Below, piece after piece: positions 2,036-63,239 of a stretch of 64,000 nt of DNA (the first letter of the stretch is position 1; each line of letters opens with the position of its first letter). Source of the stretch: a virus; the IMG/VR virus record IMGVR_UViG_3300044732_001653, positions 7,518 to 71,517 of that record, one strand, 5' to 3'. The position numbers were made by a program, and so were the translations under genes. The notes below the pieces were generated by a model. That model had not been told where the DNA came from. It did not search any database and saw nothing but the letters and a program-made list of their open reading frames with translations.

Positions 2036-2072
2036 TAGCGGGCTGGAATTAGGTAGCAAACTAGGTACTACG

Positions 2073-21261: not shown

Positions 21262-21327
21262 GCAAAATAGCCATTGATTCTGGCCTAGCTACCCCGCATG
21301 ATGGGGGCGTACCCCGGAGGGAGGTTC

Positions 21328-51036: not shown

Positions 51037-51782
51037 TGGCGATTGTTGACGAGCAAGACAACTTCGGAAAGCGGATCGCCGAGGTGCTGGGGCTCAGTGC
51101 CGGGATGGTCGTCGGCATCGACATTCGTGTCGAGCCGGGCAACTTCGTCACGGCCACGGCGAAGATTTTCCTCAAGGAGAATCAGGTCAAGGGCCTCGGG
51201 GTCATCTTCGACGAGATGAAGTTCGTCGGGATCAAGAAGACACCGGAGTCTGCCGCTCCGGTTTTCATGCCGCCCTCGCCCGTGCCACCGACAGGGCCGG
51301 TGACGTCTCCCGTGTACTGGCCGTGCGAGACCAGGAAGTGGTTTTCGTGGCTCCCTGTCGTTCTCCTCCTCGTCGCCGGTTGCCGCCCGGCGTCCCCGCC
51401 CCCGCCGGACCTTCGGCCGTGGATCGCCGTCACTGGGGTCTACGCCCTGATGGCTCCCGCGATCGCCCCGCTCCCGCCGGCCCCGGCGCCGGGAGCCCCA
51501 TGCGAAAACTGCAATGGGAAGGGAACGGTCGGCGACGGCGTCGTCGGCAAGACCTGCCCAATCTGCGGCGGCACCGGGGTAACGCCATCCAAGGCCCCAG
51601 CAGCCCCGCTGCCGCCCGTTCCCACGGCCGGGGTGTCCGTAGACCCTCCGGCCCGTTCCGCCGCTCCGGGGGCCTCTGGTTCCCTCACACGGGGCCTGCC
51701 CGTTTCCACGGAGGAGGCCCCCACATTCCGAATCGTCTGCGAGGATGGAGTATGCCGGAAGATCAGAGTTTTGCCCCGCTGA
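51036..51782 (+). CDS. Fusion-like protein with internal lipoprotein-type signal and DnaJ-type CxxCxGxG finger
   Basis: 'LLLVAGC', 'CENCNGKG..CPICGGTG', 'CEDGVC'. Confidence 0.6.
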   Translation: MAIVDEQDNFGKRIAEVLGLSAGMVVGIDIRVEPGNFVTATAKIFLKENQVKGLGVIFDEMKFVGIKKTPESAAPVFMPPSPVPPTGPVTSPVYWPCETRKWFSWLPVVLLLVAGCRPASPPPPDLRPWIAVTGVYALMAPAIAPLPPAPAPGAPCENCNGKGTVGDGVVGKTCPICGGTGVTPSKAPAAPLPPVPTAGVSVDPPARSAAPGASGSLTRGLPVSTEEAPTFRIVCEDGVCRKIRVLPR

Positions 51783-52105
51783 AGCGGTACGTCCGCGAGC
51801 GGGGTGGCTTTCGCCTCGCCACCAGGGCGCGGTTCAGGGACCAGTGCGTCGATTGGGCTGTGGCCGACTGGCCGACCGGCGAACTGCCGGGTGAGATCGA
51901 GGCCCGCCTCCGCGAGCGGCTGGTCGCCCGCACCGAGGAGCGGTACGGCTCGATCCTCGCCACCCTGCTCATCGGCATCGCGGTCAATCTGATCTGCCGG
52001 CTGATCGTCGAGTGGTGGCTAGCCCGCCAGCTTAACCGGACCCTCATGGCAACGTGGCACTATGCCGAAACGAATCCCCCAGTTCCGCCCTCCGACCGCC
52101 CGTGA
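51752..52105 (+). CDS. Membrane protein
   Basis: 'YGSILATLLIGIAVNLICRLIVEWW'. Confidence 0.6.
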   Translation: MPEDQSFAPLKRYVRERGGFRLATRARFRDQCVDWAVADWPTGELPGEIEARLRERLVARTEERYGSILATLLIGIAVNLICRLIVEWWLARQLNRTLMATWHYAETNPPVPPSDRP

Positions 52106-52421
52106 CCGGCTCCCGGCCCGCCCCCGCGACGATGACCGGCTGTCGTCGTCGGCCCGCGGCTACGGGTCGGCAGCGTGGCAGCGGGTCCGTCTCGCCGTGA
52201 TCGCCCGCGACCAGGGAGCCTGTCGCCTTTGCGGCCTGCTTTGCTGGGGCGAGGGTGAAGCCCATGTCGATCACATCGATCCCAAGCGCCCAGGCGAGCC
52301 GGCCGAGGCCACGCCGATGGAGGGCTTGCGGCTCCTGTGCCGCAAGTGCCACTCCAGGCATGGCCTCAAGTGGTCGGCTCGGCCGGGAGGGGATTCTTCC
52401 GAGGGCGACCACGACGCTTGA
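52062..52421 (+). CDS. HNH endonuclease (terminase-associated type)
   Basis: 'RGYG..WQRVRL.V..RD..C..CG..HVDHI.P..L..LC..CHS'. Confidence 0.9.
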   Translation: MPKRIPQFRPPTARDRLPARPRDDDRLSSSARGYGSAAWQRVRLAVIARDQGACRLCGLLCWGEGEAHVDHIDPKRPGEPAEATPMEGLRLLCRKCHSRHGLKWSARPGGDSSEGDHDA

Positions 52422-52716
52422 CCGCCGTCGCCGGCGGGGACGGGGGGCGACGTTTCAGGCCGCGAGCCTTGAGTGCCGCATCAACCCCGGAGTGCGAGCA
52501 TTCGACGGCAAACATCGGGTCGGCTTTGAACTTCCACCCAGGCTCCAGCTTGTTCTCGGCGATCTTCGGGACATCAGCCTTGCGGATGATGTAGTGCCCG
52601 AAGACTTTCGTCGTGATTCCAAGCCGGTGAGCCGTTCGATAGGCCACCGATTGCTGGATTCCCGAGATCGTCGCGGCCTCGGACAACTTGACCCAATCTT
52701 CTGTCTCAATCAGCAT
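52366..52716 (-). CDS. HTH DNA-binding protein with AT-hook tail
   Basis: 'WVKLSEAATISGI', C-terminal 'KRRGRPRK'; AAGGAG RBS. Confidence 0.65.
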   Translation of the reverse strand: MLIETEDWVKLSEAATISGIQQSVAYRTAHRLGITTKVFGHYIIRKADVPKIAENKLEPGWKFKADPMFAVECSHSGVDAALKARGLKRRPPSPPATAVKRRGRPRKNPLPAEPTT

Positions 52717-52897
52717 GGTGTAGCTCCTTGAAATCATTCTTATCGAATCACTTGCAGCAGTCCATCCAGAAAATCGCGAACCGCCACGGCCAGCGGACCC
52801 CCCTGCCCTAGCTCCTGCCCCAGGCGGACCAAAAGCAGGGTACGAATCAACTCGTTCCAGCGTTTCGTCATACCCGTCTCCTCGTACCGGGGTCACG

Positions 52898-53050
52898 TCA
52901 GAGACCCCGCCGCCGCCGGCGAAGTCTCTCGGCCACCATCGCCGCCTGCCGCGCGCGTGCTGCTTGGATGTCTTGCGTGGTGGCTAGCTCCTTCGTGAGG
53001 AGAAACGCCAACCACTTTGCTTCGATGCGCTTGATTCTGTTCGTTCCCAT
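52898..53050 (-). CDS. Early-array hypothetical protein
   Basis: Starts at AAGGAACCCCCGACC-ATG. Confidence 0.55.
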   Translation of the reverse strand: MGTNRIKRIEAKWLAFLLTKELATTQDIQAARARQAAMVAERLRRRRRGL

Positions 53051-53091
53051 GGTCGGGGGTTCCTTCGTCTTGTGGGGTGTCGTTCCGTGAA

Positions 53092-53403
53092 TCAACCTTC
53101 CATCCGGCTCTCTTCGTCCTCGGCATCGAGCAGATCGCGGGCCAACCCCGCCCCCTGCTCACAGATGCCCTCGACCGTTCCGCCGCCGCCGACCCCGCCC
53201 TCGGCAATCGCCTCGGCAGCCGCGATGCCAGACTCGATCTCCCAATGGATCGCGAGGTCCGCGATCATCTCGGCCACCGACTCCTCAAAGGCCGCGCCTC
53301 TGGTACTGCGGCCGGTCATCTCCTCGTAGAGGCCCATGAGCTTCTCGGCGCGGGCATGGGCGTCGCCGCTGGTGTTCGCGGTCAGGTTGTTGGTCGTTGC
53401 CAT
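53092..53403 (-). CDS. Early-array acidic protein
   Basis: Starts at CCCCGACC-ATG; Glu/Asp rich. Confidence 0.65.
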   Translation of the reverse strand: MATTNNLTANTSGDAHARAEKLMGLYEEMTGRSTRGAAFEESVAEMIADLAIHWEIESGIAAAEAIAEGGVGGGGTVEGICEQGAGLARDLLDAEDEESRMEG

Positions 53404-53505
53404 GGTCGGGGTGTCTTTCTGTTCTAGTGGGGTAGTGTGGGCTGTCATCGTTTCGCCGGCCGGGGTTCCCATGCACGGGGGCCGGCGCCCGTGCGGGTTG
53501 TAGGT

Positions 53506-53943
53506 TCAAGACTCGATCAGCGTCCCAGGCGAGACCCTCTCCCAGATGATCGAGATGGCCGTTCGGAAGCTCTCGTACTCCGCGGACGGGGATTCATTCG
53601 TCCCGCCGTTGATGATGTCTTCCGGCTTCCAATCGCAGCCGTAGACGCGGTCATCGGGAGCGTGCGGCGTAAAGACGCCGGCCAAAGCCAAGGCCCCCCA
53701 GACGGCCATGCTGTCGAGGATGTTCCAGGGGTCGGCCGTCTCTCCGCACAGGTTCAACTGCTCGTTGATGTCGCCCTCAACGAGCGAGTCTTCCGGGTCG
53801 ATCGTTACGAACTGCCAGCCGGTTTCGTATGGCTCCGGTGCCGCCAAGGGCTCCGCGTCCCACTGCGACTCCCGCAGGAGCATGATTCCATCGGGCCCGG
53901 CGGCGGGGTATCCGATGATCCTGCGCCAGTAGATTCGTTCCAT
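53506..53943 (-). CDS. Early-array acidic protein
   Basis: GAGGAAA RBS after variant CCCCCGAACG. Confidence 0.65.
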   Translation of the reverse strand: MERIYWRRIIGYPAAGPDGIMLLRESQWDAEPLAAPEPYETGWQFVTIDPEDSLVEGDINEQLNLCGETADPWNILDSMAVWGALALAGVFTPHAPDDRVYGCDWKPEDIINGGTNESPSAEYESFRTAISIIWERVSPGTLIES

Positions 53944-54012
53944 CTCTCGTTTCCTCGTTCGGGGGTGTAATCGTCCAGGCCGGCACCGTGCCGGGGTTGC
54001 TATGGTCGGGGG

Positions 54013-54843
54013 TTAGGTCGCCTTGGCAATCGGCTCAACGCTTCCGGCAAACGGCTGGCCTTGAAACAGCCACCGACCAGCCTCGTCGCACCCGTAATCC
54101 GCCGCGTCTGTCGCAACCCATTCGGCAGCAGAGTAGGCCGCGCCGTCGTCAAGCATGACGTCGATGACCTCCCCGGCGTCGGTCGTGATTCTGTGCGTCG
54201 CAGACCATGACTCCAAGGCGGCGGCATCGCGATTCGCGAACACCTCCCTTGCCGCCTCCAGGCCAGCCTCATTCGCGGCGTCGATCGCCGCCCTCTCGTC
54301 GCTCGTCAGGTCGCCGGCCATCGTGCCGATGGCGCCGGCCGAATACCCCCAGTGTGCGCCGCACCACTGAGAGTGGAGGACACGACCATTCTTCGGCGCC
54401 TCGACGTCGAGGCGGCTGGCCCGGTCGTCGTCGGCCATGGCGATGATCGCGGCCCGGCGGTAGGCGGCACACGCCTCTTCCTGCGCCGGGTGATCCGACG
54501 GGGCCATCTCCCGCAGTCCAGCATTCCAACCGATCGTCTCGTCGGCAGTCGCAAACTCGACCGTCACCGGATCTGAGGGGGCGGCGGTGCCCTCTGCGGT
54601 GTCGATCCGCCAGCCGGCGCGGCGGGCAACGTCCTCCGCGATCATCGCCTCGTTTTCCACGTTGAGGTAGCCTTCCTCGCTGCCGACGACTTTGCCGGTC
54701 AGTTCGCCGTCGCCGTCAACCTCGGGCCACAATCCCTCCCAATCGACGGCATCGCGAGCCTCCTGCCATTCGGCGCTGCCCAAGGTCAGGCCAGCGCACG
54801 CCTCGGCGGCACGTTCGGGGGTCATTTCGTCCATCGGTCGCAT
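54013..54843 (-). CDS. Early-array acidic protein
   Basis: AGGAG RBS; very Asp/Glu rich. Confidence 0.65.
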   Translation of the reverse strand: MRPMDEMTPERAAEACAGLTLGSAEWQEARDAVDWEGLWPEVDGDGELTGKVVGSEEGYLNVENEAMIAEDVARRAGWRIDTAEGTAAPSDPVTVEFATADETIGWNAGLREMAPSDHPAQEEACAAYRRAAIIAMADDDRASRLDVEAPKNGRVLHSQWCGAHWGYSAGAIGTMAGDLTSDERAAIDAANEAGLEAAREVFANRDAAALESWSATHRITTDAGEVIDVMLDDGAAYSAAEWVATDAADYGCDEAGRWLFQGQPFAGSVEPIAKAT

Positions 54844-54919
54844 GATCGTCTCTCCTACGGGTTTCCACGTTCGGGGGCATCGGCACGTTGCCGATGCTCG
54901 TTTCGTCGTTCGGGGGGCA

Positions 54920-55177
54920 TCAACGCTGCTGCGAGTCAAGGCTCTCCCAGTGGGCCACGAGGTCGGCGTCGCCCAGGAACGACTTCCCGACTTCCTCGTG
55001 CTTGCCGTTGCTGTTGACGTAGCGGGCGAGGATTTCGCCCTTGGCGTTGCGGCGGGCTTGGCACAGGCATACGCCCCCATGGGCGGCGGGGTTGTAGTCG
55101 TCTCGGCCCACCGATCCGGTGTAGCCGGTGATGCAGATCGTCTCCCAGCGGTTCGTCAACTTGGCTTTCGTCGTCAT
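54920..55177 (-). CDS. Early-array hypothetical protein
   Basis: 'GYTGSV..NPAAHGGV..VNSNG.H.E'. Confidence 0.65.
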   Translation of the reverse strand: MTTKAKLTNRWETICITGYTGSVGRDDYNPAAHGGVCLCQARRNAKGEILARYVNSNGKHEEVGKSFLGDADLVAHWESLDSQQR

Positions 55178-55281
55178 GGTCACCGTCTCCTAGGTTTCGT
55201 GCCGTCCCCCCGCACCGGGGGTCTAGTGTCTCTCGTCTCGGCCACCCCGGCAACGCGCCGGGGTTTCCATGGTCGGGGGTG

Positions 55282-55851
55282 TCAGTCTGCCGGCCACCAA
55301 GCGGGGCGACCGCCGCCGTCGAACGCCCACGGGCAGGCCGCTCGCAGTCTCGCCCAACAGCCGGAGTGATCGGCCGCAATGGGCAGGTAGTCGATTCGCT
55401 CATACTCCCAGCCGACAATCGCCGCCGACGCCCCACGCAGGCCGGCCGCCCGCAGCATATTGGCCGCCGCGGCTATCCTCCCCGTGGCTCGCGGCGTCTT
55501 CGCCAGTTGTGCCGGCCAGCAGTAGAAGAGATGGTCAACGAACTCACTCCAGCGATCGCCCCACGAATACGACCAGTCCGGCGGATCGGTCGGAAGACCG
55601 CCCACGTCCAGCCGGAAGCGGATTTCCTCGCGGTCGGCGGCGGGGAGCCGGTCGTCGTGGAGCAGCCGACGGGCGACATTGCAGCCGAGGGTGGGGTGCC
55701 ACTCGTAATGACTGCAAGATGCTTCCAGCTTCATCGCGATCGCGATCAATTGCGTTCCCGTGAGCCGCTCCCACCTCGCCGCCTCGTCTGTGTAGACCAG
55801 GATCGCGTTGCGTTCGCCTGCGGACATCATCATCGTCTTCATCGTTCCCAT
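55282..55851 (-). CDS. Early-array hypothetical protein
   Basis: GAGGAAA RBS; flanked by repeat elements. Confidence 0.6.
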   Translation of the reverse strand: MGTMKTMMMSAGERNAILVYTDEAARWERLTGTQLIAIAMKLEASCSHYEWHPTLGCNVARRLLHDDRLPAADREEIRFRLDVGGLPTDPPDWSYSWGDRWSEFVDHLFYCWPAQLAKTPRATGRIAAAANMLRAAGLRGASAAIVGWEYERIDYLPIAADHSGCWARLRAACPWAFDGGGRPAWWPAD

Positions 55852-55926
55852 GATCGTCGTTTCCTCGTTCGGGGGTTAGGGGGTCCATCGGCCGGAGTGG
55901 CCGGTGGACGTTGGTACGGTCGGGGG

Positions 55927-56430
55927 TCAGTCAGCGGCCGAGATTTCTTCCCACACGGTCGGGCGGTTTGCTTTGAGCCAGTCCAGTGCTTCGTCTTGGT
56001 TTACGTCGACCTCAAACCCGACGCCCGCAAGCCGGCAATAGTCGAGAACTTCCCCCACCTGCGGGTTGTCCGTCGAATCGATAGCGACGCCGTCGGCCGC
56101 TTCGCTATATCCCCAGCCTTCTGCCGCCAATTCTTCGATCTCGTCAGACGAAGCGGACGCGAGCCATTGGGCACCATCAAACGTGACTTCCTTGCGGTAG
56201 TCGTCGGAGTGAACCTTTGCCCGCACGAACACCGGGCATACCTCGGGAGGAGCCGGGGCGCCAGGATCTTTGGCGAGAATGCGGTCTAATACCATGGTCG
56301 AATCGCAGTCACAGCAATGCGGAACATCGTCGAGGCCAGCCGCGGCGACCGTGTCTTCGTCAAAGCATTCCGGGCACCGAAAAACAACTTGGGCGCTGGT
56401 GGCGTCGATCTCTTTCCATTCTGGTTCCAT
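55927..56430 (-). CDS. Early-array Zn-ribbon acidic protein
   Basis: CPEC..CCDC; 'VHSDD..V.FD..WL'. Confidence 0.65.
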   Translation of the reverse strand: MEPEWKEIDATSAQVVFRCPECFDEDTVAAAGLDDVPHCCDCDSTMVLDRILAKDPGAPAPPEVCPVFVRAKVHSDDYRKEVTFDGAQWLASASSDEIEELAAEGWGYSEAADGVAIDSTDNPQVGEVLDYCRLAGVGFEVDVNQDEALDWLKANRPTVWEEISAAD

Positions 56431-56519
56431 CGTCTGGGTTCCTTTGGTTGTGGGCATCGACGCGGCGCCGCTGCCCGTTTCGTCGTTCCGGGGGTCGTTC
56501 GTTTCTACGGTCGGGGTAT

Positions 56520-56768
56520 TCAGGCTCGCCCCTCGGCCAGCGCCCTCATGTCGTCAATCAATCCTTGATTCGCCCCGCGCAGCGAGGCCGATTGTTTCGC
56601 CCGCAGCGCGTCGATTGCTTTCCGCAAGTCGGCCGCGTCAGTACCTAGCTGGCACTGGACAAAGCACGGGGCTGTTATCTGTTTCGCGCCCGAGGCGGCT
56701 TCAAGCGTGGACAGCAAGCCGTTAGCGCGTTCGATGACTCGCTCAGTCAACTGTTTCTGAGATGGCAT
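56520..56768 (-). CDS. Early-array hypothetical protein
   Basis: AAAGGAACCC RBS. Confidence 0.6.
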   Translation of the reverse strand: MPSQKQLTERVIERANGLLSTLEAASGAKQITAPCFVQCQLGTDAADLRKAIDALRAKQSASLRGANQGLIDDMRALAEGRA

Positions 56769-56855
56769 GGTTAGGGTTCCTTTGTCTCGGGGTTCCTACG
56801 GTCGGGGGGGCGCCGCCGACGTTGACGGCGCCCCGTTGCTACGGTCGGGGGTCAA

Positions 56856-57059
56856 TCAGCGGGTACGCACCATCCGATAAATCACGCCCTCGCGATCCTT
56901 GACGCACACCGATTCCCCGGTGTCGAGCGATCGCCAATCCTTTTCCCCCGGCGCACTGACAACCGCCGCGAGCAGGGCGTTATCGGCGGGGACGTCGGCC
57001 AGTCCGAAAACGGGGGAATCGTGTCGGGTATCCAAGAGAGTGAAGGCTTTCGTTTCCAT
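56856..57059 (-). CDS. Early-array hypothetical protein
   Basis: AGGAAACCCCGACA-ATG. Confidence 0.6.
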   Translation of the reverse strand: METKAFTLLDTRHDSPVFGLADVPADNALLAAVVSAPGEKDWRSLDTGESVCVKDREGVIYRMVRTR

Positions 57060-57152
57060 TGTCGGGGTTTCCTGTTGGGGGCATCGACGCGGCGCCGCTG
57101 CCCGTTTCCACGTTCCGGGGCATCGGCACGTTGCCGCTGCCCGTTGCTACGG

Positions 57153-57338
57153 TCATTTCGTCGCGGCTAGATACTCGGCCGCCCGCTCTATCTCCGTTTC
57201 TACTGCCGTCGCGGCCCGCTGGTAGCGGTGCTGGTCGATCACGCCGCGATTGCGCAGGTCTGCGGCTTCCGCGAAAGCCGCGTCGGCATTCACGATGGCC
57301 GCGAGGATCGCGCGGGGGGTTTCTGTGGCGGTTGTCAT
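57153..57338 (-). CDS. Early-array hypothetical protein
   Basis: AAGGAACCCCCCGACC-ATG. Confidence 0.6.
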   Translation of the reverse strand: MTTATETPRAILAAIVNADAAFAEAADLRNRGVIDQHRYQRAATAVETEIERAAEYLAATK

Positions 57339-57386
57339 GGTCGGGGGGTTCCTTGTCGGGGGTGGCGGTTATGGCTTGTGGGGTGC

Positions 57387-57884
57387 TTAGTCCGCAAACG
57401 ATCCGAAAGCCTGACAGTAGGACAAGAGCGTTTCGCCGCTCCCCTCGCCGCCGTAGTGGTGCGTCCACGGCTTCCCCCAGTCTTGCACTTCAAGCCACGC
57501 GCGACTCGGCTCCCCGTGTTCGTCCAGTTCGGCCATTACCCGCACCGCCGGCCCGCCAGTAGCCAACAAGACTTCTACTCGGTCGGCTTGCCAAACGCCG
57601 TCCACCCGCTCCCCGAAAACCCGGATAGACAAAGGGTCTTCCGCGATTCGCTGCTCCGCGGAATCGCGGTCGGCATGATCCCCCGCCGCCGTGTCGAGCG
57701 CCGCCAGTTCGGCCGCGTCTTCCGGGTTTGCTGCCGCCCACGCGGCGGGATCGTCGGCGCTATCGCAATCGGCCCGCAGTTCGTCGCGGCGCTCGAAATC
57801 GCAATTGAGCGCGGCCACCATTTCCGCGATTCCCGCGTAGGCGGGGGCGCCGATTTCCTCAATCCAATTGTTGTCGTTGCTCAT
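57387..57884 (-). CDS. Early-array conserved phage protein
   Basis: 'EDPLS..EVLLATGGPAVR...L..QDWG.PW'. Confidence 0.75.
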   Translation of the reverse strand: MSNDNNWIEEIGAPAYAGIAEMVAALNCDFERRDELRADCDSADDPAAWAAANPEDAAELAALDTAAGDHADRDSAEQRIAEDPLSIRVFGERVDGVWQADRVEVLLATGGPAVRVMAELDEHGEPSRAWLEVQDWGKPWTHHYGGEGSGETLLSYCQAFGSFAD

Positions 57885-57966
57885 GGTCGGGGGTTCCTTT
57901 GTCTATGGTTTCAACGGTCGGGGGGGCATCGGCAACGCGCCGCTGCCCGTTGCTACGGTCGGGGGG

Positions 57967-58371
57967 TCAATAGCTGGGGAGATTGGAGACTGGCCCGGCC
58001 AGACGTACCGTCTGGAGAATGCGGTAGCCCATCTCCTGCGCCGCCTGCGCGGCCGCAGATTCAGACTTACGAATTGTCGCCACGCTAGAACCGCCGTCGG
58101 TTAGGACGCGCCAATCGTCGGCCGATTCTTGCCACACAATCGCGGGCATGGTCGGTGGGGCGTCGGGCATCTGCCGGGCATCCCACAAAGCCGCGCAGGC
58201 GGCCGCGGCAGACGGGTAGACGGTAGGCCATTGCCGCCCGCCACGCTCCACACACCAGCGGCCGCGGCCGCCGATAACGAGCCCGGCAATCCGATAGCCG
58301 TCGGCGGCCGATCGGACAAAGTATCTGCCGGCGCCTACGCGCTCCTTGCTCCACTCGATTGTCGTTGCCAT
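57967..58371 (-). CDS. Early-array hypothetical protein
   Basis: AGGATACCCCGACC-ATG. Confidence 0.6.
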   Translation of the reverse strand: MATTIEWSKERVGAGRYFVRSAADGYRIAGLVIGGRGRWCVERGGRQWPTVYPSAAAACAALWDARQMPDAPPTMPAIVWQESADDWRVLTDGGSSVATIRKSESAAAQAAQEMGYRILQTVRLAGPVSNLPSY

Positions 58372-58450
58372 GGTCGGGGTATCCTGTTTGTGGTTCCATC
58401 GGTCGGGGGCCGGCACCGCGCCGCCCCCCGTTGTCATGGTCGGGGGTCAA

Positions 58451-58960
58451 TCACTCCAAACAGATAGAAGAGCCGCAGATCACTTTTCCGTTTTTCGTAA
58501 TCACCGTTTCGATATCAACGGAGCGATAGCTAGAGACTCCGGCCGGGTACGCGCCAAAGGCGACAAACCCAAGCCCCTCATTACGGGTCTTTATAGAGCC
58601 GCGAGAGTAGGACAGGGTGAGACGAAACCCTGCCAGTAGGAGCGCCGCCACGGTCGGGCCGTGGGTGTGTACAAACTTCGCTTCCGGCACGAACACCCGC
58701 GGCCCGTCGGAATCGGAATCGTCGCCGGGGCGCCCGGTGACACTTGCGGAAATGTCCGTCTCGATAGTGACGATCGCGCAGGCATCGCCGGGGCGCTTTC
58801 CGTCCACCGCCCGGCGAAACTCGCCGCGCCATCCGTTGGCGGCCGTCGCCCAAAATGTCCATCCATCATCGGGCCTGTTTGCTACCCGCCGGAGGAATCG
58901 CTTTCCTTCCGGGGAGTCGATTGAGACGGTATCGAACGTGTCGAGCAGTGTCGTTGCCAT
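58451..58960 (-). CDS. Early-array hypothetical protein
   Basis: AGGAAACCCCCCGACC-ATG. Confidence 0.65.
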   Translation of the reverse strand: MATTLLDTFDTVSIDSPEGKRFLRRVANRPDDGWTFWATAANGWRGEFRRAVDGKRPGDACAIVTIETDISASVTGRPGDDSDSDGPRVFVPEAKFVHTHGPTVAALLLAGFRLTLSYSRGSIKTRNEGLGFVAFGAYPAGVSSYRSVDIETVITKNGKVICGSSICLE

Positions 58961-59044
58961 GGTCGGGGGGTTTCCTGTTTGGTTTCAACGGTCGGGGATC
59001 GTCGCCACGGCTACGCGCCGTGGCTTGTGGGGTAGGTTGTGGAA

Positions 59045-59398
59045 TCAATGAATCCTCGCGCCGCCGCCCATGGCGTGGGGATTGTCCCGGTATTGCCCGT
59101 CGGCGTCCCGGTAGACGAACGGCCGCACAAACCCCGCGTAGGGGTTTCCGCATGATTCGCATACGCTCCCGGTCGATCGTGAGCGGCGCCGGGTAGACTG
59201 CGGCGGGGTAGACCGCTTCCCCGTGGCGTGGCGGCACCGTTTGCATTGGTGGCGGGACGAATTGAAATCATAGGTACGCACAAACTCGCGGCCGCCGGCC
59301 GACGTCGGCACAAAAACGCGGGTTATCCATGAGGCGGCCGGACGGGGAGCGGCTAGCGCCGCTTCCATTGTTCGATAGATCATGATCGGGGTTTCCAT
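59045..59398 (-). CDS. Early-array Zn-finger protein
   Basis: CKRC..CESC; starts at CCCCGACC-ATG. Confidence 0.6.
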   Translation of the reverse strand: METPIMIYRTMEAALAAPRPAASWITRVFVPTSAGGREFVRTYDFNSSRHQCKRCRHATGKRSTPPQSTRRRSRSTGSVCESCGNPYAGFVRPFVYRDADGQYRDNPHAMGGGARIH

Positions 59399-59468
59399 GG
59401 TCGGGGTTTCTACGGTCGGGGGGGCGCCGCCGACGTGACGGCGCCCGTTGCTATGGTCGGGGGGTGGG

Positions 59469-59873
59469 TCAATCGGGGGAGAAATAAATCAAGCCATCGT
59501 CGCCGGGGTAGACGTCAACGACGCCGAATGAATGCGCCGACGCGGTCAATCTCTCGCCGGATTCCTCCGGCCAGTCTCCATCCCAAAAGCCGGCGCCGTG
59601 GTGGTTTCTGGTCAAGAAAAAATCATGGCCGGCGCGCTCTTCCGGGGAGTAGTCCGGCCCACAACGGACGGGGCCGCCGTCGATATCCTCCCGGTTAGCC
59701 GCCGCAAATGCGGCGCAGTCTCGCCGCGCTTTATCGAGCGCGGCCGGGGCAAAATCATCGACAGTAAACCGCGAGTCGAGAGGGTTTCCGTTTTCATCGG
59801 TAGACGCCCAAAGGGCCGTTTCTAGGTACGCGGGCAGGATGGCGGCGGCGGTCTGGTCTGGTGTCGTTTCCAT
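59469..59873 (-). CDS. Early-array conserved phage protein
   Basis: 'AYLETALWAS..DC..F..AGHDFFLTRNHHGAGFWD..YPGDDG.IY'. Confidence 0.8.
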   Translation of the reverse strand: METTPDQTAAAILPAYLETALWASTDENGNPLDSRFTVDDFAPAALDKARRDCAAFAAANREDIDGGPVRCGPDYSPEERAGHDFFLTRNHHGAGFWDGDWPEESGERLTASAHSFGVVDVYPGDDGLIYFSPD

Positions 59874-59947
59874 GGTCGGGGGGTTTCCTATGGTTGGGGG
59901 CATCGACGTGGCGCCGCTGCCCGTTTCGTCGGTCGGGGGGGGGTAAT

Positions 59948-60565
59948 TCAGGCTTCCGGCGAATCGCCGCGGGCGATGGCCGCCGCGAGTTTCCGCGCGC
60001 CGGTAACGGTTCGGGCCGTCCTAACAAGCCATCCGGCGGGATGGTGGGGGGAGCGTCGAACCATATAGACGCCGTTTTCCCGGCTAATCGTCGCGGCATT
60101 GCCGCGGCGGGTTATGGTTTGCGTTAGGCCGCAGGAAAAGCCGTAAGGGGTCGGCGTACCGTCGGCGGCCGCGGTTGTGGTGTTTACGGTCGGGGGGGAG
60201 ACTCGCCGACGTCGCAAGCGCAGAATCATCCCCGGCCCCTGCCCCCGGCCGTACCATCGGGCGCCGTCAAACGCGGTGACGTCGACAGTACAGTAGCCGT
60301 ATGAATTGCCGCCGATACGGCCGACGTGATGACGGGAATACGTCACGCGCCCGACGATCCCCCCCGGCCATGTCTGGACGGTTTTACCGTCGGCGGAAAG
60401 GTAGCCGGTAAACCTGTCATGCCCGGCCATATATTCGCGCTCCCGACGGGTGGAGCAGGGGTAGCATACTTTCCGGCCGTCTCCATCTAGAGCGTATCCC
60501 GTGGGGCCGACGGTATCGGGTTTGGCAATCGCGGCGCCGCAATCGCGGCAGTGTGTCGCTTCCAT
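59948..60565 (-). CDS. Early-array protein, apparent fusion of two units
   Basis: N-part 'CRDCG..TGYA..VCYPC..GYLS..TWPG..WYG.G'; C-part 'TPYGFSCG'; repeat motif at the junction. Confidence 0.65.
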   Translation of the reverse strand: MEATHCRDCGAAIAKPDTVGPTGYALDGDGRKVCYPCSTRREREYMAGHDRFTGYLSADGKTVQTWPGGIVGRVTYSRHHVGRIGGNSYGYCTVDVTAFDGARWYGRGQGPGMILRLRRRRVSPPTVNTTTAAADGTPTPYGFSCGLTQTITRRGNAATISRENGVYMVRRSPHHPAGWLVRTARTVTGARKLAAAIARGDSPEA

Positions 60566-60668
60566 AGCCGGGGGTTTCCTGTTTGGGTTTCCATGGTCGG
60601 GGGCATCGGCTACGCGCCGCGGCCCGTTTCTACGGTCGGGGGTCGATCGAATGACTAGCGGGGTAGGC

Positions 60669-61016
60669 TCAATCGTAGTTTCCGCGCTCCACGATATCGC
60701 CCCATGATCCGACGGCCCAACGGCCGCGGCCGGTCGGGCGCCCCGACTCGTTGACGCCGTCGATGTACAGAATCGTCGGGGTATAGGTATCGCCCGTGTT
60801 TGCATATTCAATCGACGGGGAACGGGCGCCGCGGCCGGGGGGAATCAATTCGGCGCCGTAACAGCCGGGCAAAGTGGCGCTAATACTTTCCATGGTGTTA
60901 GTGACGAATCGCGGCCGGGTTTGTTCGTGTTGTTCCATGAGCCGTCTAACGGCCCGCGCGCATTCAATCGAAACGGAAAGCCGCGCGGAAATCGTCTTAG
61001 GGGTAGGTATTGCCAT
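60669..61016 (-). CDS. Early-array conserved phage protein
   Basis: 'YGAE..EYANTGDTY.PTI....VGSWGDIVE'. Confidence 0.75.
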   Translation of the reverse strand: MAIPTPKTISARLSVSIECARAVRRLMEQHEQTRPRFVTNTMESISATLPGCYGAELIPPGRGARSPSIEYANTGDTYTPTILYIDGVNESGRPTGRGRWAVGSWGDIVERGNYD

Positions 61017-61069
61017 GGTCGGGGGGGTTCCTTTGTCTAGCGGGAGGATGAATTGCGGGGCCGTCAACG

Positions 61070-61333
61070 TCAGCCGGGGAAGGAAATGAAATGAGCTTGC
61101 GCACCGCCGGGGCCGGGCAAACAGCCGGTTCCTCCAATCGTCGCGCCCGGCCACAGTTTGGCCGCCAATTCGGCCGCGGCGGTATCATGGTTCCCGTCGG
61201 CGGATAGCTCATGGCGATAGCCGCAGTAAATCCGGCGGCCGCTACCAGACGTGGCGCTAATCCTGCTCCCGCGGGTATCGGTCGGGCCGTGGAACCGGGT
61301 AACAATGACGGGAACGGTTTTCGGGCTTGTCAT
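61070..61333 (-). CDS. Early-array conserved phage protein
   Basis: 'IVTRFHGPTDTRGSRISAT..Y.HELS..NH..AA..L'. Confidence 0.75.
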   Translation of the reverse strand: MTSPKTVPVIVTRFHGPTDTRGSRISATSGSGRRIYCGYRHELSADGNHDTAAAELAAKLWPGATIGGTGCLPGPGGAQAHFISFPG

Positions 61334-61398
61334 GGTCGGGGGGTATCCTGTTTGGGGTTTCCACGGTCGGGGGGTCGGGGTTTCATCGCACGGGGGTA

Positions 61399-61428
61399 AA
61401 TCTAAGATAACCTATCGGCAGACGTCAA
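61399..61428 (-). promoter_or_regulatory. Early promoter driving the cassette array
   Basis: Minus strand TTGACG-N18-TAGATT. Confidence 0.7.
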
Positions 61429-61522
61429 GCGGAATATTTAGGGGCCGGGTTTTTCGCGGTTTCTACGCTCGTTTCCACGGTCGGGGGGGTATCGTTTCCA
61501 CGGCCGGGGGGGCTTCGTTTCT

Positions 61523-61794
61523 ACGGTCTCGGGATGATCGGCAGTCCTGTCCCCGGTGACTCGGGCGCCCACGGCGGCCACGAGCCCCCGACGGTCTCGG
61601 GATGATCGGCAGTCCTGTCCCCGGTGACTCGGGCGCCCACGGCGGCCACGAGCCCCCGACGGTCTCGGGATGATCGGCAGTCCTGTCCCCGGTGACTCGG
61701 TCGCCCACGGCGGCCACGAGCCCCCGACGGTCTCGGGATGATCGGCAGTCCTGTCCCCGGTGACTCGGGCGCCCACGGCGGCCACGAGCCCCCG
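61523..61794. repeat. 68-bp tandem repeat x4
   Basis: Copies start at 61523, 61591, 61659 and 61727; one substitution in copy 3. Confidence 0.97.
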
Positions 61795-61803
61795 GGGAAA
61801 GGA

Positions 61804-62214
61804 TCAAACGCAATCCCAGACTAGTTTCCCGTCGGCGTCGTATACCGATACGTTACCATGGCAATTTACCATGATGAAATCATCATCCGCCGGAAGGGTT
61901 TCGGGGAAATCGTCATACTTTGTCAATTCGTCTAGTTCAGACCAGCTAGGCCAGAAACCAAAATCACTACCATCCCCTTCGTGAGCGCCAAAGTAAGTGT
62001 AGGGGAGCGCCAATTCGTTCAGGATATCCTCCAGCGCGGAAATGATTTCCCCGGATTCATCATCGATGAATCCATAGGATTCAATATCCTTGACTCTTTC
62101 AAGGAAAGTAGAATCGTCAGCCTGTTTTTCATCGGCAAGGCGAAGCGCGCATGCCAGAAACGATTCAAACAAGTCTTCCGGCCGTAGTGTACCGTGGGAA
62201 ATGGAACCAATCAT
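61804..62214 (-). CDS. Early acidic conserved phage protein
   Basis: 'GSISHGTLRPEDL..F..L..YFGAHEGDGSDFGFW..VNCHGNV'. Confidence 0.75.
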   Translation of the reverse strand: MIGSISHGTLRPEDLFESFLACALRLADEKQADDSTFLERVKDIESYGFIDDESGEIISALEDILNELALPYTYFGAHEGDGSDFGFWPSWSELDELTKYDDFPETLPADDDFIMVNCHGNVSVYDADGKLVWDCV

Positions 62215-62264
62215 TGTGGGAATCCTTTGTCTAGTGTGGTGGAAAGTGTGGGGGGGGAAGGAAA

Positions 62265-62741
62265 TCAATCGCGGTTTTTTGGGGCTTTGTATCTGGCAAG
62301 GCGATAGCGTTTCTTGACGTCACCAATCTTGGAAAACGTCAACGGATAGCTATCAAGGTTTTCCCATCCATGGTATTCCCCAATAGCCTCATATCCGCGC
62401 GCCAGATCGACAGGGTCGGAAGAACAAAGTAGCGCCGTCAATTCTCCCTGTTCCATTCCCGTATACTGTTCGACACTGTCGATGGAATCGGCAAACCATT
62501 CCGGGGAATGCGGATGAAACTTGTTGGCGGACAGGATACCGTCGGTAACGGTACAGCGTTCCAAGATGAAACGGTAAACAGTCCATTCCCCTCCGCTATC
62601 GGAATCCGGGGGAATGAGTTTTTCCCCCTCCGGCGGATAGACTCCCGTTGAATCGCGAACGATCCATAGTCCGCCGTATTCAATCGGGTTTGTATCGCCA
62701 ATCTGCGCTACAAACTTCCAATTCGGCTTGGCTGTTCTCAT
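62265..62741 (-). CDS. Early conserved phage protein
   Basis: 'GDTNPIEYGG..D.TGVY..E..IG.YHGWENLDSYP'. Confidence 0.7.
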   Translation of the reverse strand: MRTAKPNWKFVAQIGDTNPIEYGGLWIVRDSTGVYPPEGEKLIPPDSDSGGEWTVYRFILERCTVTDGILSANKFHPHSPEWFADSIDSVEQYTGMEQGELTALLCSSDPVDLARGYEAIGEYHGWENLDSYPLTFSKIGDVKKRYRLARYKAPKNRD

Positions 62742-62789
62742 GACGTGGAAATCCTTTGTTTAGTGGGGGAATGAATTGCGGGGGGCTTT

Positions 62790-63200: not shown

Positions 63201-63239
63201 TTTTTGGGTTTCCTTTGTTGGGGGAGTGTTGGGGGGATA

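What the first reader, a model, noticed from the sequence alone, without database searches (positions are those of the whole stretch)
52898..61510. Cassette-like array of ~18 short genes separated by a conserved, strand-polarised repeat element
Seen: nearly every spacer between the minus-strand genes has the same architecture on the coding strand: stop - CCCCGACCGTAG(C/A)AAC - GC-rich hairpin - CCCCGACCGT(T/G/A)GAAAC - A(A/C)AGGA(A/T)A RBS - CCCCGACC-ATG (e.g. 57882-57970, 58369-58450, 59381-59468, 60563-60650). I count about 30 exact GGTCGGGG (+ strand) in 8.5 kb, all in one orientation, and did not notice this density elsewhere. The genes between are unrelated to each other. Known analogues: T4 PeSL elements that shuffle early genes, mycobacteriophage start-associated sequences, integron attC cassettes. 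Inference: a recombination-driven gene-cassette system for acquiring and shuffling host-takeover/anti-defence genes, or a polarised protein-binding/processing signal (Chi/KOPS-like or RNA-level) on the first-injected DNA.
Basis: partly seen in the sequence, partly recalled or inferred. Interest (0 to 1): 0.88.

Follow-up and report, generated by a model that had tools for sequence, protein, structure and literature searches.

The report
Repeated gene-boundary signal in phage operon
An uncultured lake phage and its relatives mark almost every gene boundary in one fast-changing block of small unknown genes with the same one-directional 16-letter word and a small hairpin, most likely a shared control signal that also acts as the seam where genes are swapped.

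Summary
GGTCGGGG occurs 34 times in the window (7.2 expected). Thirty copies lie in 53051-61486, all on one strand. The true unit is a 16-nt word, C-CCCGA(C/A)CGTGGAAAC. The window holds 29 relaxed matches, all on the minus strand, against 0.13 expected. In the array, 23 copies are intergenic, 8 overlap a start codon and none lies inside a gene body. The word is clade-wide: 274 copies on the major strand against 6 on the minor strand across 22 related viral sources. It lies next to hairpins whose stems differ in sequence.

The array is the hypervariable part of otherwise syntenic, integrase-bearing phages. Homology blocks end at the motif (62 of 98 ends, null 24.9). One window gene is a fusion of two cassettes with a motif relic at the joint.

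My reading is a cis-regulatory punctuation module, more likely read on mRNA than on DNA. Recombination between the modules is a by-product, as with T4 PeSLs. I found no integron-like machinery. The closest parallels are Cluster K mycobacteriophage SAS/ESAS, L5 stoperators and PeSLs. The scan has noted analogous, non-homologous punctuated arrays in other phage genomes. The function is untested.

The parts
61523..61794 (-). 68-bp x 4 tandem repeat directly upstream of the motif cluster and array promoter. Each unit ends in a half-motif (CCCGAGACCGT).
   Evidence: period 68, 4.0 copies, 99% matches; sequence read
61459..61533 (-). Upstream motif cluster. Copies lie at 61517-61533 (variant), 61494-61509 and 61471-61486, with a half copy at 61459-61468. 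All lie upstream of the -35 hexamer.
61399..61428 (-). Sigma-70-like promoter of the array, TTGACG-N18-TAGATT. It has the same style as a Pirellulales-order rrn promoter.
   Evidence: 9 of 12 matches; for the host rrn promoter
61334..61398 (-). 5' leader of the first gene, with motif copies at 61357-61380, an SD (AGGA) and CGACC-ATG
61070..61333 (-). ORF 1, 87 aa (phrog_3199, unknown function)
61017..61069 (-). Spacer 1: SD plus a start-overlapping copy only, no hairpin
60669..61016 (-). ORF 2, 115 aa; 63% identical homologue in the closest relative (L009)
60566..60668 (-). Spacer 2: motif, hairpin (60601-60625), motif, SD, degenerate start copy
59948..60565 (-). ORF 3, 205 aa. It is a fusion of two cassettes that are separate ORFs in L009, with a translated motif relic at the joint (window 60195, aa 123).
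   Evidence: aa 2-123 vs L009 3180-3557, E 5e-37; aa 141-187 vs L009 3687-3914, E 8e-12
59874..59947 (-). Spacer 3: motif, hairpin (59898-59922), degenerate motif, start-overlapping motif
59469..59873 (-). ORF 4, 134 aa (phrog_1915, unknown function)
59399..59468 (-). Spacer 4: motif, hairpin (59422-59446), motif, start-overlapping motif
59045..59398 (-). ORF 5, 117 aa, CxxC pairs
58961..59044 (-). Spacer 5: hairpin (59004-59024), motif, SD, start-overlapping motif (fold z -3.46)
58451..58960 (-). ORF 6, 169 aa
58372..58450 (-). Spacer 6: motif, hairpin (58405-58429), motif, SD, start-overlapping motif
57967..58371 (-). ORF 7, 134 aa; homologue in L009 (49% over 73 aa)
57885..57966 (-). Spacer 7: motif, hairpin (57924-57948), motif, SD, CGACC-ATG
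57387..57884 (-). ORF 8, 165 aa
57339..57386 (-). Spacer 8: SD plus start-overlapping motif, no hairpin
57153..57338 (-). ORF 9, 61 aa
57060..57152 (-). Spacer 9: the stop codon overlaps a partial motif. Two hairpins (57118-57142 and 57079-57103) have a motif between them. Then come the SD and a start-overlapping copy.
56856..57059 (-). ORF 10, 67 aa
56769..56855 (-). Spacer 10: motif, hairpin (56807-56834), motif, SD
56520..56768 (-). ORF 11, 82 aa
56431..56519 (-). Spacer 11: two motif copies, then a hairpin (56452-56476) whose 25 nt are identical to the hairpin at 57079-57103, then the SD
55927..56430 (-). ORF 12, 167 aa, CxxC pairs
55852..55926 (-). Spacer 12: motif variant, hairpin (55883-55909), motif with the SD inside (CCCGAACGAGGAAAC), 7 nt, ATG
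55282..55851 (-). ORF 13, 189 aa
55178..55281 (-). Spacer 13: motif, hairpin (55245-55263), ordinary SD
54920..55177 (-). ORF 14, 85 aa
54844..54919 (-). Spacer 14: motif, hairpin (54877-54897), motif, SD
54013..54843 (-). ORF 15, 276 aa; N-terminal homologues in L044 and L012
53944..54012 (-). Spacer 15: motif, short hairpin (53980-53994), motif with the SD inside, ATG
53506..53943 (-). ORF 16, 145 aa
53404..53505 (-). Spacer 16: hairpin whose 3' arm is the motif (53454-53487), then a start-overlapping motif
53092..53403 (-). ORF 17, 103 aa
53051..53091 (-). Spacer 17: SD plus start-overlapping motif
52898..53050 (-). ORF 18, 50 aa. Family F4: conserved in 8 sources, with an arginine-rich C-terminal tail. 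First gene of the conserved distal module.
52740..52871 (-). ORF 19, 43 aa, conserved in G001, G004 and G005; the spacers on either side carry no motif
52366..52716 (-). ORF 20, 116 aa. Family F2: a small winged-helix DNA-binding protein that closes the array in 11 sources.
52062..52421 (+). Conserved HNH endonuclease, convergent with the end of the array (boundary marker, not part of the array)

Best explanation
The block is the hypervariable accessory operon of a clade of integrase-bearing tailed phages. Its timing is probably early, and the host is probably a member of Pirellulales. Host RNA polymerase transcribes it leftward from sigma-70-type promoters.

Every small ORF is framed by a clade-conserved, strand-locked 16-nt word (invariant CCCG...AAC, consensus C-CCCGA(C/A)CGTGGAAAC):
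- one copy lies 0-10 nt after the stop codon;
- one abuts or overlaps the 3' arm of a short GC hairpin;
- one carries the Shine-Dalgarno sequence (in most relatives) or the ATG itself (in this phage) in its variable centre.

I read the hairpin plus the unpaired word as a standard 5'-UTR or 'punctuation' module acting on the mRNA. One still unknown sequence-specific factor, phage- or host-encoded, would recognise the word on every cistron. It would thereby gate translation initiation, and perhaps cut or stabilise the long transcript, in a coordinated way.

Because the same module sits at every gene boundary, ordinary homologous or short-homology recombination between modules inserts, deletes, replaces and occasionally fuses ORFs. 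That makes the region hyperplastic. The recombination is a by-product, as with T4 PeSLs, and not a dedicated integron-like machine.

Shown: the motif, its polarity, its placement, its conservation across the clade, the hairpins, the mosaicism and the breakpoints. Inferred: that the signal is read on RNA, that a trans-acting factor exists, and the effect on translation or processing.
For: Enrichment and polarity. The window has 29 relaxed matches, all on the minus strand, against 0.13 expected. Across 22 related sources there are 274 copies on the major strand and 6 on the minor strand. In five whole related records there are 64 copies, one strand per record, confined to about 4-8 kb, with 1 control match.

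Placement. Of 31 copies in the array, 23 are intergenic, 8 overlap a start codon and 0 lie in gene bodies. Spacers 1-17 make up about 1.3 of the 8.6 kb (my arithmetic).

Link to translation signals.
- Ten of 20 starts are CGACC-ATG, which forces N-termini of the type MET, MAT or MTT.
- In relatives, and in two window genes, the SD (GAGG or GGAG) sits in the motif's variable centre, 5-7 nt before the ATG.
- Both registers fall inside a ribosome footprint.
- Genes outside the operon have ordinary SDs without the word.

Structure.
- Motif copies are predicted unpaired next to a hairpin.
- Strict hairpins directly upstream of copies occur in 38 of 273 windows, against 4.95 +/- 1.9 in shuffles. In this genome the figures are 8 of 32 against 0.47.
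- Thirty distinct hairpins have 288 Watson-Crick and 11 other stem positions, with quite different stem sequences. Selection is therefore on a folded single strand.

Leader. In 7 relatives the conserved promoter is followed 7-9 nt after its -10 hexamer by a hairpin whose 3' arm is the motif, then the SD-motif, then ATG. The primary transcript would thus begin with one such module (read by eye).

Recombination by-product.
- Homology-block ends lie at motifs (62 of 98 within 50 nt, null 24.9 +/- 4.2).
- A 1.2-kb insertion has both joints in a spacer.
- Two cassettes are fused with a motif relic at the joint.
- Spacers are paralogous within the genome (21 of 32 best flank matches; 59-78-nt repeat families; one identical 25-nt hairpin in two spacers).
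- The conserved distal genes lack the motif.

Precedent. Cluster K SAS/ESAS share the polarity, the embedded SD, the restriction to non-structural genes and the upstream inverted repeat (PMC3203893, passages read).
Against: - No RNA data exist, so nothing shows that the word is read on RNA.
- Tandem clusters of the purest copies lie upstream of the sigma-70-like promoter (61459-61533 here; 2-8 copies in relatives). An RNA model must explain these by read-through from an upstream promoter. That is possible here, because no terminator-like site is predicted on that strand between 61400 and 61800, but it is unproven.
- The operon ends in a conserved small winged-helix DNA-binding protein, which suits a DNA-level reading.
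- Per-spacer folding energies are not exceptional against GC-matched shuffles (z from +0.45 to -3.46, 13 of 14 negative).
- The G.T versus A.C mismatch test, which could have shown RNA-strand folding, was uninformative (2 versus 3).
- Breakpoints in spacers are expected for any gene-level mosaicism, and BLAST blocks tend to run up to a conserved word. One search is therefore supportive, not decisive.
- No phage single-strand-annealing recombinase was found (RecT 0 of 5, ERF 0 of 5).
Confidence: 0.4

Rival explanations
1. DNA-level operator or 'stoperator'-like sites. The asymmetric word would be bound on double-stranded DNA by a phage regulator. The best candidate is the conserved winged-helix protein F2, the last gene of the operon. 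Binding at the cluster by the promoter and at every gene junction would shut the operon off, either in lysogeny or as a delayed feedback.
For: - Tandem head-to-tail clusters lie upstream of, and one copy lies just downstream of, a conserved sigma-70-like promoter.
- The two conserved halves of the word (CCCCGA and GRAAC) are about one helical turn apart.
- All 5 records tested encode a tyrosine integrase next to an excisionase-like HTH gene, so a need for silencing is plausible.
- F2 closes the array in 11 sources. It gives weak HTH Pfam hits: HTH_23 and HTH_29 in 5 of 11 members each, HTH_17 in 4 of 11.
- The confident N-terminal domain of the F2 model best matches RacA, BldC and the pSK1 Par DNA-binding domain (prob 0.97-1.0, target TM 0.57-0.68, but E only about 0.05-0.3). 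From recall, BldC and Xis-type proteins bind direct repeats head to tail.
- L5 stoperators are more than twenty asymmetric 13-mers in promoters and short intergenic gaps, with orientation tied to transcription (PMC9283540, passages read).
Against: - Nothing links F2 to the word.
- The sites occur in one operon only, whereas stoperators are spread over the genome.
- A DNA roadblock has no need to carry the SD or ATG in its centre, to constrain the first codons of 10 genes, or to abut a hairpin whose stem varies in sequence.
- Spacings inside the clusters show no helical phasing (15 to 57 nt).
- No integrated prophage with the array was seen in the 401 genomes of the order that were searched.
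Confidence: 0.3
2. A dedicated cassette-recombination system, integron/attC-like or HUH-type acting on single-stranded DNA. The word plus hairpin would be a recombination site cut by a specific enzyme, so that ORFs are excised and inserted as units.
For: - ORFs are bracketed very exactly by direct copies of the word: one overlaps the ATG and one lies within 10 nt of the stop in 11 of 17 spacers.
- The hairpin and flanking words are strand-specific.
- Gene content varies between relatives with joints at the word.
- Genes without the word are the conserved ones.
Against: - No Y1/HUH transposase (0 of 5) and no serine recombinase (0 of 5) was found.
- The only tyrosine recombinase lies 32 kb away beside an excisionase-like gene, the usual place for a phage integrase.
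- The hairpins are 15-34 nt with nearly perfect stems.
- Shared families stay collinear.
- Contigs of four runs showed no cassette variants.
- Many spacers hold three copies of the word, and clusters hold up to eight, which a two-site recombination reaction does not need.
Confidence: 0.07
3. nut-like processive antitermination sites. The linear word would act like boxA and the hairpin like boxB. The hairpin would be bound by the conserved arginine-rich small protein F4, letting RNA polymerase read through the whole operon.
For: The arrangement of a linear conserved word plus a hairpin with a partly conserved apical loop (many loops contain CGT). A conserved protein of about 60 aa with an arginine-rich tail is encoded in the same operon.
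Against: - The rRNA leaders of two genomes of the probable host order carry a canonical boxA (TGTTCTTTGACAA and CGTTCTTTGACAA) that does not resemble the word. No match to the word with 4 or fewer substitutions was found there.
- No terminators are predicted inside the array for an antiterminator to overcome.
- About ten such sites per operon is far more than known nut systems use (recalled).
Confidence: 0.05
4. Promoters, or factor-dependent start sites, in front of each gene, read by a phage-encoded polymerase or sigma factor.
For: One orientation, upstream of genes, repeated. The 3' half (GGAAC or GAAAC) recalls the -35 elements of alternative sigma factors (recalled).
Against: - No sigma-70 region 2 was found (0 of 5).
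- No T7-type RNA polymerase was found (0 of 5), although the control genomes were silent for that family, so this blank is weak.
- Copies also sit directly after stop codons and overlap start codons, leaving no room for a transcript leader.
- No fixed partner element lies at promoter distance.
- The sigma-70-like scan finds only two sites on this strand in 14 kb.
Confidence: 0.03
5. A Chi- or KOPS-like polar DNA signal that guides or stops a DNA translocase or nuclease on the entering or packaged DNA.
For: Strict single orientation and local clustering.
Against: Such signals work anywhere in DNA. This word is excluded from gene bodies (0 of 31), is phased with stops, SDs and ATGs, and is tied to a hairpin. 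In three relatives the array is internal to the contig, so nothing places it at a DNA end.
Confidence: 0.03

Closest known systems
[quoted passage not shown]
   Same: - A short asymmetric word in many copies, almost all in one orientation.
- Restricted to the non-structural part of the genome.
- Placed at gene starts with the SD inside it.
- A strong ATG preference.
- Associated genes have unusually long spacers.
- About half the sites have an inverted repeat just upstream.
- Conserved across subclusters in front of unrelated genes.
- Function still untested in 2025.
   Different: - The sequence is unrelated and longer (16 nt against 13).
- There are two or three copies per spacer, including one directly after the stop codon, plus tandem clusters by the promoter.
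- In this phage the ATG and the next codons are inside the word.
- The inverted repeat here keeps base-pairing while its sequence changes, whereas the ESAS authors saw little support for RNA pairing.
- The phage lineage is different, and the probable host phylum is different.
PeSLs (promoter-early stem-loops) of T4-type phages (PMC2839356, passages read; PMC4122927, outline and abstract)
   Same: Composite regulatory modules with a stem-loop flank ORFans in hyperplastic regions. Insertions, deletions and replacements between relatives have their joints in the modules. Recombination is a consequence of repeated regulatory sequence, with no dedicated recombinase.
   Different: A PeSL carries its own sigma-70 promoter, and its stem-loop terminates transcription. 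Here the spacers hold no promoter-like site, and the hairpins lack a T-run. The conserved part is a 16-nt word tied to stop, SD and ATG. Mini-circles were not observable with the data at hand.
Stoperators of Cluster A mycobacteriophages such as L5 (PMC9283540, passages read)
   Same: More than twenty copies of an asymmetric short site, in a promoter region and in short intergenic gaps, with orientation tied to the direction of transcription. The phage is temperate.
   Different: Stoperators are spread over the whole genome. They are not phased with SD or ATG and have no companion hairpin. A repressor that binds them is known, and none is known here.
RNase III processing hairpins between the early genes of coliphage T7
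   Same: Hairpins punctuate a host-transcribed operon of small early genes.
   Different: T7 sites are long duplexes of about two helical turns with internal loops (recalled). Here the stems have 6-13 pairs, and the conserved element is the flanking single-stranded word.

Membership tests
Cluster K SAS/ESAS | Match to the 13-bp SAS consensus given in PMC3203893 (two or fewer deviations) | tested here: not met
   The word here has a different sequence and length (compared with the consensus quoted).
Cluster K SAS/ESAS | Asymmetric, one orientation, restricted to the non-structural part of the genome | tested here: met
   32 copies on the minus strand and 0 on the plus strand in the window, 31 of them in the array. 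Across relatives, 274 on the major strand and 6 on the minor strand.
Cluster K SAS/ESAS | Lies a few nt before the start codon and contains the SD | tested here: met
   SD-in-motif copies lie 5-7 nt before the ATG in relatives and in 2 window genes. In 10 further window genes the ATG itself lies in the word, which goes beyond SAS.
Cluster K SAS/ESAS | Phage belongs to mycobacteriophage Cluster K | tested here: not met
   No blastn match to any of 50,697 cultured-phage records. The probable host order is Pirellulales, by MAG binning only.
Cluster A stoperators | Asymmetric sites in a promoter region and in short intergenic gaps, orientation tied to transcription | tested here: met
Cluster A stoperators | Sites distributed across the genome | tested here: not met
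   All sites lie within about 10 kb of one operon.
Cluster A stoperators | Bound by the immunity repressor, and blocks elongation in one orientation only | not testable with these tools
   Needs binding and reporter assays.
T4-type PeSL | Each element holds a strong sigma-70-like early promoter | tested here: not met
   Only 2 promoter-like sites on the minus strand in 50000-64000, and none in spacers 1-17.
T4-type PeSL | Stem-loop in the element; elements flank ORFans in a hyperplastic region | tested here: met
T4-type PeSL | Indel and replacement joints between relatives fall in the elements | tested here: met
T4-type PeSL | Recombination between neighbouring elements yields mini-circles | not testable with these tools
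   Only assembled contigs of DNA runs were available.
Integron (attC cassettes) | Integron-type tyrosine integrase next to the array | tested here: not met
   The only tyrosine recombinase is at window 20365-21261, 32 kb from the array, beside an excisionase-like gene. I did not test it for the IntI-specific insertion.
Integron (attC cassettes) | attC-type folded site with paired R/L boxes and extrahelical bases (size range recalled) | tested here: not met
   The hairpins are 15-34 nt with nearly perfect stems.
Integron (attC cassettes) | Promoterless cassettes, all in one orientation, behind a common promoter | tested here: met
lambda-type nut site | Linear element resembles the host rRNA-leader boxA | tested here: not met
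   The rRNA leaders of two genomes of the order carry a canonical boxA unlike the word.
Any Rfam family | Covariance-model match | tested here: not met
   0 matches at E<=1 in 52000-64000, both strands.

The most novel reading that the evidence does not exclude
The 16-nt word plus hairpin is the site of a dedicated, still unrecognised cassette-exchange mechanism in phages of Planctomycetota. ORFs, bracketed exactly from ATG to stop by direct copies of the word, would be excised and inserted as units. An enzyme acting on the folded single strand would do this, giving a phage counterpart of the integron.
Probability: 0.07. Interest if true: 0.85.

Novelty: new variant of a known kind. Interest (0 to 1): 0.55.

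Why it matters
The fast-evolving blocks of small unknown genes in phages are thought to hold host-takeover and counter-defence functions. How they are co-regulated and how they turn over so quickly is poorly understood. In this case one short word, conserved across phages whose core proteins are only 30-70% identical, marks the stop, the ribosome site and even the start codon of nearly every such gene. The same word coincides with the seams of gene gain, loss and fusion.

If a single factor reads this word, one experiment (binding plus reporter assays with the two conserved small proteins) could explain the control of a whole accessory operon. The result would also bear on the unexplained SAS/ESAS elements of mycobacteriophages. 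The word is also a practical handle: a 16-nt pattern pulls this phage clade and its cassette arrays out of metagenomes.

Tried and rejected
- Cultured relatives: blastn (distant mode) of 53000-60900 against 50,697 phage records found no match.
- Close relatives by protein: two single-protein scans of viral contigs found none.
The scan was wasted.
Only L048 (8 copies) and L090 (6 copies) had arrays, while L068 and L164 each had 2 scattered copies.
- Sequencing runs: no RNA holder is listed. Contigs of four DNA runs were fragmentary and identical to the window, with no cassette variant. A 55874-to-58406 joint with 17 other letters between, and a 61373-to-61355 one, fit short contigs of related phages that match only at motif copies, so I give them no weight.
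- Rfam: no match.
- G.T versus A.C mismatch test for RNA-strand folding: 2 versus 3, uninformative. A first, RNAfold-based version was dropped because the folding program itself favours G.U pairs.
- A first motif regex was one position too long and gave nonsense counts. It was corrected.
- Divergent repressor gene upstream of the motif cluster: not supported. Most contigs begin at the cluster, and the opposite-strand ORFs look spurious.
- Concerted evolution of spacers: clear only for this genome (21 of 32). For the other sources, close relatives in the set dominate the best matches.
- Covariance model: the MAFFT seed alignment misplaced the run of C between hairpin and motif, so I did not build a model. 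I used an ungapped stem search with shuffles instead.
- boxA mimicry: rejected.
- HUH/Y1 transposase, serine recombinase, sigma-70 region 2, RecT and ERF: none found in 5 records. T7-type RNA polymerase: none found, but the control genomes were silent too, so that blank is weak.
- Integrated prophage: not found in the 401 genomes of the order that were searched. The single hit in a 6.75-Mb contig is an isolated copy.
- The 502-aa conserved upstream gene: no Pfam or PHROG family and no useful Atlas lead.
- F2 against solved structures by sequence: only designed repeat proteins and weak rows.
- Ideas considered from memory and dropped because the spacing or sequence does not fit: alternative-sigma promoter made of two neighbouring copies, CRISPR-repeat mimic, REP/RAYT-type element, RfaH ops-like pause site, Rho-loading C-rich tract.
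- Supplementary files of the SAS and PeSL papers were not opened. They may hold site lists that would refine the comparison.

Full report
What is there. The window is bases 7518-71517 of a 71.5-kb viral record rated complete. GGTCGGGG occurs 34 times (shuffle mean 7.22, largest 18). Thirty copies lie in 53051-61486, all on the + strand. Read on the coding (minus) strand, the octamer is the core of a 16-nt word. The relaxed 15-mer CCCGRMCRNNGVAAC has 29 matches, all on the minus strand, against 0.13 expected. A broader form (CCCG-R-N5-R-V-AAC) has 32 matches on the minus strand and 0 on the plus strand. Thirty-one of these lie in the array: 23 intergenic, 8 overlapping a start codon, none in a gene body. 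Spacers 1-17 make up only about 1.3 of the 8.6 kb (my arithmetic).

Genes. The array holds 18 ATG-started ORFs of 50-276 aa within the stated coordinates, plus two more distal ones. None of the 20 has a Pfam match above cut-off. Of 15 scanned against PHROGs, 2 hit families of unknown function. They do not cluster with each other.

Anatomy of a spacer. The common layout is as follows.
- Stop codon.
- A copy of the word 0-10 nt later (11 of 17 spacers, plus one at 28 nt).
- A GC hairpin of 6-13 pairs (14 of 17 spacers).
- A second copy abutting or overlapping the hairpin's 3' arm.
- An AGGA-type SD.
- A third copy whose variable centre is the ATG (CGACC-ATG in 10 of 20 genes).

This last copy constrains the first codons to M-E/A/T/G-T/N. 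Two distal genes instead have the SD inside the word, 6-7 nt before the ATG, which is the form most relatives use. The full three-part layout holds in 10 of 17 spacers by my reading. Genes elsewhere in the genome have ordinary SDs without the word.

The hairpin. RNA folding leaves the word unpaired beside one clean hairpin. Whole-spacer energies are not exceptional against dinucleotide shuffles (z from +0.45 to -3.46, 13 of 14 negative). Position is the stronger evidence. A strict ungapped stem (8 or more positions, 2 or fewer non-Watson-Crick) lies directly upstream of a copy in 38 of 273 windows across the clade, against 4.95 +/- 1.9 after shuffling. In this genome the figures are 8 of 32 against 0.47. 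The 30 distinct hairpins have 288 Watson-Crick and 11 other stem positions with quite different stem sequences, and many loops contain CGT. A structure kept while the sequence changes points to a folded single strand and not to a protein-bound DNA palindrome. Whether that strand is RNA could not be settled, because G.T versus A.C mismatches are 2 versus 3.

A clade-wide feature.
- A strict pattern scan of viral contigs gave 37 loci, of which 16 carry 5 or more copies, nearly all on one strand.
- In five whole related records there are 64 copies, one strand per record, within about 4-8 kb, with 1 control match.
- Over 22 sources the count is 274 on the major strand and 6 on the minor strand, with consensus C-CCCGA(C/A)CGTGGAAAC.
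- These records are syntenic relatives of the window's phage, at 30-70% amino-acid identity in the structural and replication genes. The array is the part they do not share.
- All five records tested have a tyrosine integrase of about 300 aa. In this genome an excisionase-like HTH gene lies next to it.
- The array lies between a conserved, convergent HNH endonuclease gene and, across the permuted contig end, a conserved 502-aa gene that diverges from the terminase-like gene.

Leader. In 7 relatives the array begins with a conserved region of about 240 bp. It contains, in order:
- 2-5 tandem copies of the word;
- an ATTCTCAC box;
- one more copy;
- a sigma-70-like promoter (TTGACT-N17-TGcTATyCT);
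- 7-9 nt later, a 6-bp hairpin whose 3' arm is the word;
- the SD-carrying copy, then ATG.

In the window the promoter is TTGACG-N18-TAGATT (61428-61399). Three and a half copies lie upstream and two downstream of it, and a 68-bp x 4 tandem repeat lies before that. A related 60-bp repeat precedes a second promoter-like site at 63639-63611 and ends the contig. An rrn promoter in a genome of the probable host order has the same style, which suggests transcription by host polymerase.

Cassette behaviour.
- Only five of the 24 operon proteins queried (the 20 array ORFs plus four upstream ORFs) have homologues in the closest relative, all in the same order.
- Across 21 arrays, the shared families keep their relative order but are separated by many gains, losses and replacements. 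A conserved distal module (F4 ... F2) without the word closes the array.
- Between arrays sharing blocks of at least 78% nucleotide identity (17 pairs), 62 of 98 internal block ends lie within 50 nt of a copy, against a null of 24.9 +/- 4.2 with a maximum of 39.
- L036 has 1.2 kb more than L038, with both joints in the SD-carrying part of a spacer.
- The window's 205-aa ORF 3 equals two separate ORFs of the closest relative, with a translated relic of the word exactly at the joint.
- Within this genome the spacers are paralogues: 21 of 32 best flank matches are internal, repeat families of 59 nt (7 copies) and 78 nt (4 copies) are 60-90% identical to their reference copies, and one 25-nt hairpin is identical in two spacers.
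- These results fit exchange at the repeated modules. However, spacer-located joints are expected for any gene-level mosaicism, and BLAST blocks tend to run up to a conserved word.

Mechanism. The word is conserved across phages whose core proteins have diverged to 30-70% identity. That argues for a function in every infection cycle, with evolvability as a side effect. Four features favour reading on the mRNA:
- its strict sense orientation;
- its exclusion from gene bodies;
- its two alternative registers, both inside a ribosome footprint (SD or ATG in the centre);
- its unpaired state beside a hairpin whose stem varies in sequence, together with a primary transcript that would start with exactly one such module.

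On this reading the module is a shared translational operator and/or a processing and stability signal. Against this stand the tandem clusters of the purest copies upstream of the promoter, and the conserved small DNA-binding protein F2. F2 gives weak HTH Pfam hits: HTH_23 and HTH_29 in 5 of 11 members each, HTH_17 in 4 of 11. Its model has pLDDT above 80 for residues 1-60 and best matches RacA, BldC and the pSK1 Par DNA-binding domain at weak E-values. Those features fit a stoperator-like DNA reading (PMC9283540). I put the RNA-level module at 0.40, the DNA-level operator at 0.30, and the remaining rivals at 0.03-0.07 each. The remaining rivals were tested as follows:
- boxA mimicry was tested and not met;
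- a phage sigma factor or Y1 transposase was not found;
- the integron-like reading lacks its enzyme and its site type.

Host and habitat. Array-bearing contigs are binned in four genomes of one order: G007, G008, G318 and G370. The record titles of L048 and L090 name Pirellulales. In all four cases the contig is short and phage-like. No integrated copy was seen in the 401 genomes searched. Sixteen runs labelled lake water hold at least half of the stretch's sampled words, and 3 of them may be the source.

Comparison and novelty. The closest described parallel is the SAS/ESAS system of Cluster K mycobacteriophages, whose function was still untested in 2025. PeSLs of T4-type phages give the best model for the recombination side. 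L5 stoperators are the model for the DNA-level rival. None of these is homologous to the word here, and each fails at least one defining feature. The scan has noted analogous punctuated arrays in other phage genomes but no look-alike of this sequence. I class it as a new variant of a known kind. It is real and conserved, and unusual in embedding the start codon. Its mechanism is open.

Noticed in passing
window 61523-61794 and 63754-64000: Two related tandem repeats (68 bp x 4 and 60 bp x 4.1) each lie just upstream of a sigma-70-like promoter site. The second one ends the contig. Related contigs also carry tandem repeats there, and at least 12 independent contigs begin within about 250 nt upstream of the motif cluster. 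This is probably an assembly break at repeats, but a physical DNA end is not excluded. In two laid runs the 68-bp units differ by a 1-nt insertion and a 9-nt deletion.
   Followed up: partly
window 61804-64000: A block with low G+C (0.53 against about 0.63 elsewhere) holds four minus-strand ORFs upstream of the array. Three of them (starts 62741, 63200 and 63566) have start regions sharing ACAAAGGA(A/T) with the array's SD regions but lack the full word. One ORF (62790-63200) has a homologue in the closest relative.
   Followed up: partly
window 52898-53050 (family F4) and 52366-52716 (family F2): The only conserved genes of the operon are at its distal end. F4 is a protein of about 60 aa with an NRxxPYEAGWL core and an arginine-rich tail. 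F2 is a BldC/RacA/Xis-like winged-helix protein. They are candidate trans-acting factors for the word or the hairpin.
   Followed up: partly
L038 147-175, L036, L023, L026, L044, L020, L012 (leader regions): A conserved box of about 25 nt, beginning ATTCTCAC, lies between two motif copies about 90 nt upstream of the conserved promoter. It is absent from the window's own leader.
   Followed up: no
window 20365-21261 and 21298-21927: A tyrosine integrase (conserved in all 5 records tested) lies next to a 209-aa protein with a weak HTH_17 and excisionase match. This suggests a temperate lifestyle, although no integrated copy was found.
   Followed up: partly
window 52062-52421: A conserved HNH endonuclease is the last gene of the rightward block and converges on the array. 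No small-terminase gene is evident next to the terminase-like gene, which lies outside the window at G000 1973-3799.
   Followed up: no
window 55263-55277, 58430-58444, 60587-60601: Three non-start copies of the word also contain ATG. The one at 55277 would open a 15-codon mini-ORF straight after the upstream stop codon.
   Followed up: no
window 59045-59398, 55927-56430, 59948-60565: Several array proteins carry paired CxxC motifs, suggesting small zinc-ribbon-like proteins.
   Followed up: no
L012 4150-4510 (minus-oriented locus): In one relative, an opposite-strand ORF of about 95 aa sits between the tandem motif cluster and the promoter-proximal copy.
   Followed up: no
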